Numbered from the stretch's first letter, positions 10,401 to 28,400 are shown. The stretch: DNA of 37,809 nt from Nemertoderma westbladi (GCA_032718475.1 JAUCBJ010003044.1:1-37809), one strand, 5' to 3'. The notes: a model not told the origin generated them from the sequence alone. A program made the numbers and translations.

Positions 10401-13400
10401 TGCCTCCGTGGTGTACTGTGCAGCATAGCGAACCTTTATTGAACCCTGAATGCGGTTGCCTCCGTGGTGTACTGTGAAGCATAGCGAACCTTTATTGAAC
10501 CCTGAATGCGGTTGCCTCCGTGGTGTACTGTGCAGCATAGCGAACCTTTATTGAACCCTGAATGCGGTTGCCTCCGTGGTGTACTGTGCAGCATAGCGAA
10601 CCAATTGAACCCTGAATGCGGTTTCCTCTGTGGTGTACTGTGCAGCATAGCGAACCTTTATTGAAAGACGCGGGTTCAATTCATGTCGGTGGCGAATATA
10701 TTTTTTCGCTAGAATTACTACTTGTTTTAAATGATTTATCAGAGCTGATTAATAATAGGCATACTGATCCACACGAATAACCACTGATTACCCCCAAAAA
10801 GAATACTGTAACATGTTATATTGACTCGAAGTTTATTGTTTCTCATGGTTAGAAAAACGTACCATCTTAACCTGCTCTTTCCCTAAATTGAGAATTTAAC
10901 TTTAAGACGAGATATTTTTTATTATATATAATTATTTGCCGAGGTGGGATTTGCATCAAGAAGAAAATCGAGCCCAAACATCAAACGCATCAACCCCCCC
11001 CCCCCCCCCCTCCGCCCCCCAGTTTATCATTTAAACTCACTTTCTTATTACTTTGTATGAACGTTTGTTCTTTTCACTGCCCTGCCTTTTGCCCTCCAAC
11101 TCCAGTATTATAAACATGCCCACCGAATGGCCCCATAGAGTTCGCCTCGCCCATTATAACTCACCTCGTTAACATTAATTTTAGCCTTGGCTGACGTCTC
11201 GAGGAATGTAGACATCCAGTTACGAGCTAAGTTCTGCCCTTGATCCTTTCCTACAACTCGCTCATCTTCCAAATCGCATTTATTACCCACGAGAATAACT
11301 GGAACCTGTAAACATAATGATTCATTAGATGGTAAAATTATACCATTTTCCTAAATATTTCGAGGGATCTAGGACACTCCCCCCCCCGGACACTTCCCCC
11401 CCGCCCAAGTGACACTTCCCCCCGGACACTCCCCCCCCCCCCCCCGGACACTTCCCCCCCAGTTAAAGTGTTAAAATTAATCTGGGTGCATCAAAGCAAT
11501 AAACAAAAGTTAAAGATGGTTACAGGACAAGTTATATCTAGGCAAGTTTTTTCAAAATTATAAAAGAAACATTTTTATAGTCAAATTTTGTTTGTTTTTC
11601 ATTTCATTGGGGGCTGCCGCCCCCAAACCCCCGCTTATTTTCTTGGGGGCTGCCGCCCCCAAACCCCCGCTTCTTTTGTTGGGGGATACCGCCCCCAAAC
11701 CCCCGCTTCTTTTCTTGGGGGCTGCCGCCCCCACACCCCCGCTTCTTTTATTGGGGGTTATCGCCCCCAGACCACGGCATTTCCCTGAGTGCCCGTGGTG
11801 AAAGACTTAAGACCACTTTGAAATAATTAATTCATGTTTGTATCATCAGATAATAAATTGACTAAGCCTAAAGTAGGAGCTGTATTGAATGTTAACCTAT
11901 TTAATATATAAATTACTCAATGTTTGTATCATCAGATAATAAATTGACTAAGCCTAAAGTAGGAGCTGTATTGAATGTTAACCTATTTAATATATAAATT
12001 ACTACAATATTATATAATTCAACAAAATCCTATTAAAAATATTGCAAGTAACCAGGAAATTTAATATGTAGTGTGTATAATATCTATATAGTATGTATAG
12101 TAGTAATATATATATCAATATGTAATGCAGAACACAGAATACAGGTCGACGCATGTCGATTTTACCCTGGAGAGGTATAATTTTGATTGCAACAATAATA
12201 TTCATCCCCATCTGCTACAATTTGAAGAAGACTATTACATAATAATACCTATAATTAAAACAATTAATTATTATAATTCTATAGTTAATAAAAACAGTAT
12301 ATCATTCCGGGGATGGAATTTATAGGTCATCTAATATAATTAATTGTTAAAAGATTAGCAAACAATACAATGTAATTGCATTGATAAAACCCATAAATAA
12401 AACTTGGATATAAAATGTAAAATCGGGATGCAAAAGATCACTTTCTGAGCTACGAAAGGAAAATTGGATACAACTTATCTGGATACAAGCGGTCCGTTTA
12501 CCTTACAAAATGAAAAATACGAATGTGCGAAGTTAAGAACAGTCGGGGGGGAAGTGTCCGGGGGGAAGTGTCCGGGGGGGAAGTGTCCGGGGGGGAAGTG
12601 TCCTACTTGAGCGGGGGGAACTGTCCGGGGGGGAAGTGTCCGGGGGGAAGTGTCTGGGGGGAAGTGTCCGGGGGGGAAGTGTCCTACTTGAGCGGGGGGA
12701 ACTGTCCGGGGGGGAAGTGTCCGGGGGGGAAGTGTCCGGGGGGAAGTGTCTGGGGGGAAGTGTCCGGGGGGGAAGTGTCCTACTTGAGCGGGGGGAACTG
12801 TCCGGGGGGGAAGTGTCCGGGGGGGAAGTGTCCGAACACCATTTCGAGATATGTTATCTATACCGCACCCGAACGAGCTGTATCCAACCGAGTCACCAGA
12901 GTATGGGAAACTAGAAGGTAAACCAACTCGGCAAACAAAACGTTCTTATTTAAGAATAAATTAATACTCACGTCTTCTGCATCTTTGACGCGAAGTATCT
13001 GCTCCCTTAGATCAGTAAGGTCATTGAAGGTGCTTTGAGCCGTGATACTGTAAACCAACACAAACCCTTGTCCATTTTTCATGTACAGATCACGCATGGC
13101 GGTAAATTGTTCCTGAGGAATCGAAATTAAAAAATAATGTAAATAATACACAAGCAGCAAAATTATATCCCCCGCCGTCTTAGGTTAAAAATCTACACTG
13201 TGTATCAGGCAGCTATACTACCTCTAAAATTGAAACAATATCTCCAACATTCACTAACCGTTCCAGCTGTGTCCAATATCTCCAACATACACTAACCGTT
13301 CCAGCTGTGTCCAATATCTCCAACATACACTAACCGTTCCAGCTGTGTCCAATATCTCCAACATACACTAACCGTTCCAGCTGTGTCCAATATCTCCAAC

Positions 13401-25400: not shown

Positions 25401-28400
25401 ACCGTTCCAGCTGTATCCAATATCTCCAACACCAACATACACTAACCGTTCCAGCTGTGTCCAATATCTCCAACATTCACTAACCGTTCCAGCTGTATCC
25501 AATATCTCCAACATTCACTAACCGTTCCAGCTGTGTCCAATATCTCCAACATACACTAACCGTTCCAGCTGTGCCCAATATCTCCAACATACACTAACCG
25601 TTCCAGCTGTATCCAATATCTCCAACATACACTAACCGTTCCAGCTGTATCCAATATCTCCAACATACACTAACCATTCCAGCTGTATCCAATATCTCCA
25701 ACATACACTAACCGTTCCAGCTGTATCCAATATCTCCAACATACACTGCTGTCCGTCAACCTCAACTTGCTTCCTGTAGCTGTCTTCGATTGTCGGATCG
25801 TACTTCTCAACAAATATTCCTTGAACGAATTGCACCGTCTAAAAGTGTAAACAAGGAACCTTCGTAATATCTCACATCGCAAGAAATGGCTTTACCCAAC
25901 TGTGTAAATATACACTTTTTGAAACAAAAGTTTCGTAAAATTACAATTTAGAATAAGATTACACATACACACGTACAGTACATACATAAAGTACTTTACA
26001 GCGTTTGGATCCTCGCATATTAATTTGCCCTGACTCACTCACTAACTTCGTTCGTGTAAGGTACAAGCCACCCACACCAGTATGATTTATTAATGGAGCA
26101 AAATAATTCATTATCAGCGCCACTAAATATACTCAATTATATATAAAATAAGAAAATCGACAGCAGCGGTCGTCTTTGAGAAGAGAGCTTACGATCGATA
26201 TATAATTGGCCCCAATTGGTGCTTGTGTGTCAAAACGTATAGCTGGACAGACAAACATACAATGCATATTTATATATATTAGACTAGAAACTTACTAGAT
26301 TTTTATATATATTAGACTTTCTAGTTCACCAGCCTACTGTAGAACTGCAGAGTGACCATCCTCATAAACACAACCTATAGTTTATTTAGTACTGTAGAAG
26401 GTACTTTTAGATCGCGGCCAAGAATCAACTCTAAATAATTTAAATGGGAGAAAGATTTAACTTTCAGACAATTCGTACCCTAGCGGCAGATTGGAGAACT
26501 GAAGACTGGTCAACGTCCTTCCCAAAGACGCAATTAATGAATGGTCTAGTAGTCGTGTAGTAGACCTCTGCCAAGTATCAGTCTAAAAGCATTTTTAATA
26601 CCGAAATATGATAATGTTTTCACTTTCAGACATTATGCCCCCTAGCGGTAGACTGGAGAAATGCAGACTGGTTCTAGCGCCTCCCCAAACATGCAGTCTA
26701 TGGTGTAGTAGACCTCTGCCAAGTATCAGCAAAAAGCATTATAAACGAAAGGGAGAAGGTTTTCACTTTCATACATTTCACCCTCTAGCGGCAGACTGAT
26801 GAATTGCAGATTGGTCCGAGTTCTCCGTAAACACGCAGTCTATGGTCTAGTAGAACTCTGCCAAGTATCAGCCTAAGAGCATTATAGACATCGAAATAAG
26901 AAAAGGTTTTAACTTTCAGACATTTCGCCCCTTAGCGGCAGAGTGGAGAACTGTATGTTGTTCGGCGTCCTCCCCAAACACACACCCTATGGTCTAATAC
27001 ACATCTGCCAAGTGTCAGCCTAAAAGCATTATTAATAACGAAATGGGATAAGGTTTTCACTTTCAGACATTTTGCCCCCTAGCGGTAGACTGGAGAAATG
27101 CAGACTGGTTCTAGCGCTTCCCCAAACATGCAGTCTATGGTGTAGTAGACCTCTGCCAAGTATCAGCAAAAAGCATTATAAACAACGAAATGGGATAAGG
27201 TTTTCACTTTCAGATATTTATCCCCCTAGCGGCAGACTGGGGGGTTGCAGATTGGTCAGCATCCTCGCTAACACACAGCCTATGATGTAGTAGAGACCTC
27301 TGCCACGTATCAGCTAAAAGGCATTAATAATAACGAGATGGGAGAAGGTTTTCAGTTTCTGATATTTCGCCCACTAGCGGCAAACAGGAGAACTACAGAT
27401 TGATTAGTGTCCTCCCAAACACACAGTCTATGGTCAGGAACATATTCGCAAAGTATAATTTAGAACAGATTGAAAATGGTTATGGAATAAAATATTAGAG
27501 TACAAATATACTATTATTTAGTTACTAATATTTAGTACACCTTGGATAGAGCCGTTTATCCCAGTTAGAGACGGCATAGAAGTAGTCACAGGGTTCGTCA
27601 ACAAGAAGCAGGATAACATCAACTTTTATGGCCTGACTATCCGATTGAACTCTATGGTTTACTTATTACATCATAGGAATTTACCTTCTTTAAATTTAAA
27701 AGTTCATTTTCAGGCATTTATATACATGTAAAAGAGAAAGATTATTTAAACAATTATTTTCTATCCGTGAATTGGTGGTATATACACGTTTTATGACGAC
27801 GGTTGGGCAGTGGCCACATGTGGAGGAGGAACTGGATAAATTTATTATCTAAATTCATGCCACCCATCCATTAAATATAACATCTGTTTGTTGTTTGTCG
27901 TATATTGTTTGCAATATTTAATCCTTTAAGGGGGGGGGGGGGGGGGGTGGGGGGGTGGGGAATTGCACCCCCCCCCCCCCCCCCCTACATTTCTTTTCAT
28001 AATTTGTTAGGTCTATATCTCCTAAAAAAAATTGCAGAGAAAACTATATACCATCGAATAGAGAATCATCAACAGTAAATAAAAATTTGAAAAACAAGCG
28101 CAAAATCGCGCGCAAAGGTCCGCGTCTACTAACGCATGAACTGTCTCCTTGAATGGCTTACTACCAATCGGATGGCAGACACTTCCCCACACTACCATTT
28201 CGATACAGGACATTTGCGACACATAATTTTTGTAACAAAGTGTCCTGTGTCGCAATGACTCGAATCCTAATGCAAAGCAAGTTCGCTACAGATTTTCGGA
28301 CACTTCGTCACAACTTTATAATGGAACGTGCATTTCTCTCTATTTTATTATTTCTTTATTTACAGGTGATATTCGGATTATCACAGTGCTTATTGAACAA

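What the first reader, a model, noticed from the sequence alone, without database searches (positions are those of the whole stretch)
13236..25747. A 12.5-kb satellite built from Rap1's own exon 2 end and splice donor: ~329 decoy 5' splice sites
Seen: the 38-bp unit equals codons C51-T61 ([11 protein letters not shown], the G3 motif) plus GTTAG, and the first copy is the real exon end. Only ~123 bp of the 12,600-bp intron 2 is non-repeat, so a short intron seems to have grown about 100-fold. Most copies carry the same ACG|GTTAGT donor as the authentic site. Inference: correct splicing requires choosing the first of hundreds of equivalent donors in a highly conserved gene, probably through exon definition or co-transcriptional first-come selection. 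This makes it a natural test of splice-site choice. Whether it has been described before cannot be determined here.
Basis: partly seen in the sequence, partly recalled or inferred. Interest (0 to 1): 0.88.

Follow-up and report, generated by a model that had tools for sequence, protein, structure and literature searches.

The report
Splice-donor minisatellite in Rap1 intron
The end of one exon of an animal's Rap1 gene, splice signal included, is repeated about 326 times across 12.5 kb of the next intron, yet the one spliced transcript assembly seen uses the first signal, so this is likely a tolerated, large example of a repeat type already known from human and lancelet genes.

Summary
Confirmed, with small corrections. 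An intact five-exon Rap1 gene lies on the minus strand. Intron 2 is 12,600 bp and holds 326 donor positions (not 329), one per 38-bp unit; 320 keep GT. Any donor but the first truncates the protein.

The repeat exists outside this assembly: in two DNA runs from two studies, unique contigs end at the array edges. Its length is less sure. A 3.2-kb block is doubled almost perfectly, and depth ratios in those runs are below the window's counts. One spliced contig of the same species joins exon 2 to exon 3 with a single unit, that is, through the first donor. That animal's array length is unknown.

The layout is known: human F7, CBS, 6-16, LMNB2, PDGF, lancelet 'mirages', and ABCA7 with up to about 427 units. 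F7 experiments already showed first-donor choice. The scan noted this before on other DNA, including larger arrays in this genome (unchecked notes). One sharp feature: the last decoy lies 146 nt from the acceptor. New member of a known kind; interest 0.27.

The parts
30672..30728 (-). Rap1 coding exon 1 (57 nt from the ATG)
   Evidence: a 5' UTR of about 540 nt is implied by the X4 contig length, not mapped
25713..25838 (-). Rap1 exon 2 (126 nt, residues 20-61); its last 33 nt are the exon part of repeat unit 1
25707..25715 (-). Authentic 5' splice site of intron 2 (first intron base 25712); the donor used in the X4 contig
13236..25747 (-). 38-bp minisatellite: 326 units plus an 18-nt partial unit; 325 decoy donor positions, 319 of them with GT
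19396..25712 (-). Two head-to-tail copies of an 82-unit (3,158 bp) block differing in 1 of 82 units; newest duplication or assembly doubling
13236..19395 (-). Distal half of the array, with a 57-unit block repeated at a lag of 69 units (4 of 57 units differ) and a 16-unit block repeated exactly
13253..13261 (-). Last decoy donor (first intron base 13258), 146 nt from the exon 3 acceptor
13113..13235 (-). Non-repeat 3' end of intron 2 (123 bp) with pyrimidine tract and AG acceptor
   Evidence: attached to repeat sequence in both X1 haplotype contigs
12972..13112 (-). Rap1 exon 3 (141 nt)
11165..11305 (-). Rap1 exon 4 (141 nt)
   Evidence: joined to exon 3 in the X4 contig
7379..7468 (-). Rap1 exon 5, coding part (ends in a CAAX box and the stop codon)

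Best explanation
The array is a tandem repeat of Rap1's own exon 2 end plus donor, likely a functionless 'mirage'/splice-donor VNTR that the cell likely tolerates because the spliceosome commits to the donor nearest the exon 2 acceptor. Shown: unit anatomy, intact gene, truncation by every other donor, one-unit junction in one spliced contig. Inferred steps: (1) A 38-bp piece across the exon-intron boundary was duplicated, probably by slippage at a short microhomology (the bases before the unit in the exon resemble the unit junction). (2) It grew by unequal exchange, leaving nested block duplications of 16, 57 and 82 units. (3) Exon 2 lies behind a 4.8-kb intron, so it would be read by exon definition: the first donor gives a 126-nt exon and is transcribed first, 12.5 kb before the acceptor exists. 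(4) Rare use of later donors would give premature stops, likely cleared by nonsense-mediated decay, so selection against the copies is weak.
For: Spliced contig X4 record 17 (1,490 nt, depth 1,390): exon 3 is joined at a GT..AG joint to 36 letters of one unit, and the next 30 letters are unique exon 2 sequence from 25748. The other end runs into exon 4. That joint is in 0 contigs of DNA runs X1 and X3, so no processed copy was seen there. Donors 2 and 3 give 84 and 93 aa products; the other 323 give 87 aa. No sign of donors being purged: 8 of 28 substitution types fall in the 9 donor positions against 6.6 expected, and 6 of 326 positions lost GT. Precedent: only the most upstream site is used in F7; 6-16 and CBS also use the next two. 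ABCA7 shows one-unit retention. Lancelet mirages do not disturb splicing. Equal-strength donors under exon definition favour the upstream one, exclusively so in minigenes.
Against: Only one transcript contig, from a sample whose own array length is unknown. Contigs drop rare forms, and the same contig was missing, so absence of decoy-spliced contigs is weak evidence. The last decoy is 146 nt from the acceptor, where the intron-proximity rule would favour it. The F7 and minigene results are mammalian and concern fewer than ten sites. Nonsense-mediated decay could hide substantial mis-splicing. The route of origin is inferred from one sequence.
Confidence: 0.78

Rival explanations
1. The repeat is real but the 12.5-kb length is inflated by assembly, for example a 3.2-kb block laid twice. 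This is compatible with the main explanation.
For: An 82-unit block starting at the array's edge is repeated with 1 differing unit. Exact-match contigs are shallower than the window predicts: X3 about 75 against 101-178 copies and 24 against 38; X1 about 6 against 38.
Against: The older block pair differs in 4 of 57 units, as expected of true successive duplications. X1 and the X3 contig seen carry other alleles than the window at the intron end, so lower depth may be length polymorphism. Even the low figures mean tens of copies: three X1 contigs at one position sum to about 35 times unique depth. The tool warns that depth is no copy number.
Confidence: 0.2
2. The array is a dosage device: a regulated share of transcripts uses donors 2-4, is destroyed by NMD, and so ties Rap1 level to array length.
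For: All 325 alternative donors lead to premature stops. Proximal pseudo-sites are used in 6-16 and CBS. ABCA7 VNTR length changes splicing.
Against: No decoy-spliced contig among what was laid (1 X4 contig; weak). In ABCA7 the one-unit retention did not change with VNTR size. Unchecked notes report similar arrays in many unrelated genes of this genome, which fits a mutational tendency better than gene-specific control.
Confidence: 0.08
3. The intron is removed in steps (recursive splicing) using sites within the units.
For: Each unit has a donor and three AG dinucleotides; the intron is long.
Against: None of the 3 AGs in the consensus unit is followed by GT, so no ratchet point is regenerated. 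Pyrimidine content before them is 0.35-0.40 against 0.55-0.80 at the four real acceptors. Splicing the last donor to the acceptor first would use up the acceptor and leave a truncating exon.
Confidence: 0.04
4. This locus is silent or secondary, and the mRNA comes from an array-free Rap1 copy or allele.
For: The genotype of the X4 sample is unknown, and no whole genome is held.
Against: X4 matches exon 3 with 0 differences over 142 nt, and the frame is intact. Both X1 haplotype contigs at the intron end run into repeat sequence. Exon 2 depth in X3 (24) is twice a single-haplotype contig (12), as for one diploid locus.
Confidence: 0.06

Closest known systems
Human F7 intron 7 37-bp VNTR, and the 6-16, CBS, LMNB2 and PDGF arrays it cites (Borensztajn et al. 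2006, PMC1557585; seen: abstract, synopsis, introduction, discussion)
   Same: First monomer spans the exon-intron boundary, identical pseudo-donors follow, unit about the same size, most upstream donor used.
   Different: F7 has 5-9 units and the others 10-25 pseudo-sites or units, against 326 here. The F7 unit is 4 exon + 33 intron bases; here it is 33 exon + 5 intron bases, so exonic context is copied too.
Amphioxus 'mirage' minisatellites: Adh3, globins BflGb6/BflGb9, troponin C, PGBD5 (PMC3087553, 6 passages and reference list lines; PMC3902484, 1 passage; the original Adh paper PMC117041 is not held and was not seen)
   Same: [quoted passage not shown]
   Different: The globin examples have up to 6 units; this array has 326. 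I did not see Adh3 copy numbers. Somatic instability is reported for Adh3 and untested here.
Human ABCA7 intron 18 25-bp VNTR (De Roeck et al. 2018, PMC5954066; seen: 8 passages)
   Same: Same scale (up to 10,678 bp, about 427 units), unit begins with the donor GT, frameshifting retention of one unit is seen.
   Different: The ABCA7 unit starts at the GT, so its pseudo-sites do not copy the exon side. Long alleles are linked to exon skipping and disease; no effect is known here.

Membership tests
Mirage / splice-donor VNTR | Tandem unit spans the host gene's own exon-intron boundary, first unit being the real boundary | tested here: met
Mirage / splice-donor VNTR | Copies keep the splice signal | tested here: met
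   320 of 326 keep GT; 298 of 326 identical over 9 bases
Mirage / splice-donor VNTR | Normal mRNA is still made through the authentic site | tested here: met
   One contig of one same-species run; that sample's array length is unknown and minor forms cannot be seen
Mirage / splice-donor VNTR | Copy number varies between alleles or individuals | tested here: inconclusive
   Depth ratios differ between X1 and X3 and from the window, but contig depth is no copy number
Mirage / splice-donor VNTR | Somatic instability (reported for Adh3) | not testable with these tools
   needs tissue-level long reads
Recursive splicing (ratchet points; definition recalled) | AG directly followed by GT, preceded by a pyrimidine tract | tested here: not met
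   0 of 3 AGs in the consensus unit are followed by GT; pyrimidine share 0.35-0.40
Rap1 GTPase | Sequence closest to RAP1A/B, intact frame with CAAX end | tested here: met
   (only exon 2 was searched)

The most novel reading that the evidence does not exclude
This animal has a mutational process that seeds and amplifies satellites at splice junctions across the genome, and its spliceosome obeys the first-donor rule so strictly that 319 GT-bearing decoys are ignored before any NMD, including one that would form an ideal 146-nt intron. Rap1 would then be a clean natural contest between co-transcriptional commitment or exon definition and intron definition.
Probability: 0.2. Interest if true: 0.62.

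Novelty: new member of a known kind. Interest (0 to 1): 0.27.

Why it matters
It extends a known layout to hundreds of donors with copied exon context, in a conserved signalling gene of an animal that appears to be an invertebrate (inferred; no close relative turned up). It shows that such an array can sit in an intact, spliced gene. The locus could test exon definition against intron definition, because the first and last donors are favoured by opposite rules. The larger question is why such arrays seem to crowd splice junctions in this genome. That rests on unchecked notes and is a genome-level question, not a property of this locus.

Tried and rejected
No whole genome is held, so I could not look for the unit elsewhere, for paralogs, or for junction enrichment. 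No RNA holder was listed on record; X4 is labelled 'DNA?' and I read it as cDNA only from its exon joins. X6 laid nothing on either stretch: no information. X4 laid nothing on exon 2 although its contig holds those letters, so holes prove nothing. I laid 5 of the 9 listed runs (X1, X3, X4, X6, X7), and only on the two array edges, not the array body.

X7 (another organism) gave a contig joining exons 1-2-3 letters, so no ancestral intron 2 was seen. Copy number from summed depth failed: the simulated sum varied from 48,067 to 169,945 with the graph threshold, so only single-contig ratios are quoted.

A Rogers-type new intron (donor in the exon, matching acceptor in the last unit) was rejected: there is no AG followed by GT in the unit. 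Purging of decoy donors was not seen. There is no AATAAA or ATTAAA in the array, so a U1-shielding role has no support.

The nested paraoxonase gave no close relative (best identities 35-40%), so the phylum stays open. Searches for a prior report of this locus found none: Rap1 + minisatellite + splice donor, 0 papers; Rap1 + satellite DNA + intron + tandem repeat + splice site, 2 papers, unrelated by title and abstract start. A search on giant junction arrays in invertebrates listed 4 of 5 papers, none relevant by title. The library lacks most subscription journals. PMC10078293 (12 passages) added nothing specific. No supplements were read.

Full report
Observation. The window holds a complete Rap1 gene on the minus strand: five coding exons (57, 126, 141, 141, 90 nt), GT-AG introns of 4,833, 12,600, 1,666 and 3,696 bp, and an open 184-aa frame. 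Exon 2 alone matches RAP1B 20-61 at E 1.7e-22. Intron 2 is filled by one array at 13236-25747, period 38, 94% matches. The unit is the last 33 exon bases plus the first 5 intron bases, and unit 1 is the real exon end. There are 326 donor positions: 320 keep GT and 298 match the authentic 9-base site. No other exon edge of the gene is repeated in the window (9 of 10 edges have one hit).

Consequence of donor choice. Donor 1 gives 184 aa. Donors 2 and 3 shift the frame (84 and 93 aa); the other 323 include a stop in unit 3 (87 aa). So only the first donor works. By match to the recalled 5' splice-site consensus, the first donor scores 7 of 11, like the intron 4 donor, and the last decoy scores 6 of 11. 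Strength therefore barely separates them.

Internal structure. The 302 38-base units differ from consensus by 2.5% on average. Three nested block duplications stand out: 16 units (0 differing), 57 units at lag 69 (4 differing), and 82 units or 3,158 bp (1 differing). Different ages suggest repeated unequal exchange (inference); the 82-unit pair could also be an assembly doubling. Substitutions do not avoid or target the donor: 8 of 28 types fall in 9 of 38 positions, 6.6 expected. 233 of 326 units carry TGA at the Cys51 codon, while the first six units all keep TGT. Conversion of the exon end by a majority unit would be a null allele (inference); neighbours are related by descent, so the run of six is no test of selection.

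Is it real? One search listed 9 runs, 6 holding part of the flanking stretch; I laid 5. In DNA run X3 the unique exon 2 contig stops at 25718, exactly the first 31-mer that is unique in the window. Summed depth over the repeat bins is 553-10,905 against 24 on unique DNA. In X1, from another study, two haplotype contigs run from the intron end into repeat sequence, to 13270 and 13265, and both differ from the window at 13131 and 13234, so X1 is not the window's haplotype. Its exon 2 contig also ends in a unit. Single exact contigs give rough ratios of 75 and 24 copies in X3 and 6 in X1, where the window predicts 101-178, 38 and 38. The tool warns that depth is no copy number, and copies elsewhere in the genome cannot be excluded. 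Reading: a multi-copy array is attached at both ends in at least one other animal; the length of 326 units is unproven and probably variable.

Is it spliced? Run X4 (same species, third study, labelled 'DNA?') laid one contig on the exon 3 stretch: 1,490 nt, depth 1,390. It covers exon 3 with 0 differences, jumps at a GT..AG joint to 36 letters of one unit, and continues with unique exon 2 sequence from 25748; the other end continues into exon 4. This is the junction made by the first donor. The joint is absent from the X1 and X3 contigs. Limits: one contig, unknown genotype, rare forms dropped, and the same contig was missing.

Mechanism. Exon 2 sits behind a 4.8-kb intron. In human data, equal-strength donors under exon definition favour the upstream one, and minigenes chose it exclusively; short introns favour the downstream one (PMC9225289, abstract and first part of Results). 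In F7, pseudo-donors are functional but the most upstream is used (PMC1557585). I therefore favour early commitment to donor 1, with NMD clearing leaks (0.78; both steps inferred for this animal). The last decoy lies 146 nt from the acceptor, where the opposite rule would apply, and this is the most testable feature of the locus. Recursive splicing lacks its signature: no AG followed by GT and poor pyrimidine tracts in the unit.

Comparison with what is known. Minisatellites whose first monomer spans an exon-intron boundary are listed for F7, 6-16, CBS, LMNB2 and PDGF. Lancelet 'mirages' are the invertebrate version. ABCA7 reaches 10,678 bp, about 427 units beginning with the donor GT, with one-unit retention seen. 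So neither layout nor scale is new. What differs is a unit made mostly of exon at this copy number. I found F7 by my own search and recalled ABCA7; the link to 'mirage' came from earlier notes, and I checked it in the papers. Three searches found no report of this locus.

Context. Of 19 earlier windows noted in this genome, the 8 shown all describe splice-junction arrays, several larger than this one (up to about 2,100 copies). One search lists 17 such findings in at least 13 genomes. These are unchecked AI notes that I could not test without the genome. If right, Rap1 is one middling case of a genome-wide tendency, and that tendency is the more interesting object.

Verdict. Observation confirmed; interpretation partly supported; new member of a known kind; interest 0.27.

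Noticed in passing
window 8719-9846 +: Intronless 375-aa paraoxonase/arylesterase-like ORF nested antisense in Rap1 intron 4; best identities 35-40%. Possibly a retrocopy (inference).
   Followed up: partly
window 32694-36614: Foldback-like element upstream of Rap1: 1,017-nt inverted arms, 98% complementary, each holding about 39 copies of a 21-bp unit, 1,887 nt apart.
   Followed up: partly
window 25518-25747 -: The first six units keep the exon's Cys51 codon, while 233 of 326 units have a stop codon there; an edge effect, or a buffer against conversion of the exon.
   Followed up: partly
window 13236-13253 -: The array ends in an 18-nt partial unit of exon-derived sequence, not at a unit boundary, so part of the original intron start may have been deleted.
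   Followed up: no
window 3903-6319, 6534-7190, 10236-10665, 12537-12834, 26558-27435: Several other tandem arrays (30/159, 24, 56, 15/81 and 147-bp periods) show a minisatellite-rich region; none copies a Rap1 exon edge. The 24-bp array seems to lie in the 3' UTR.
   Followed up: partly
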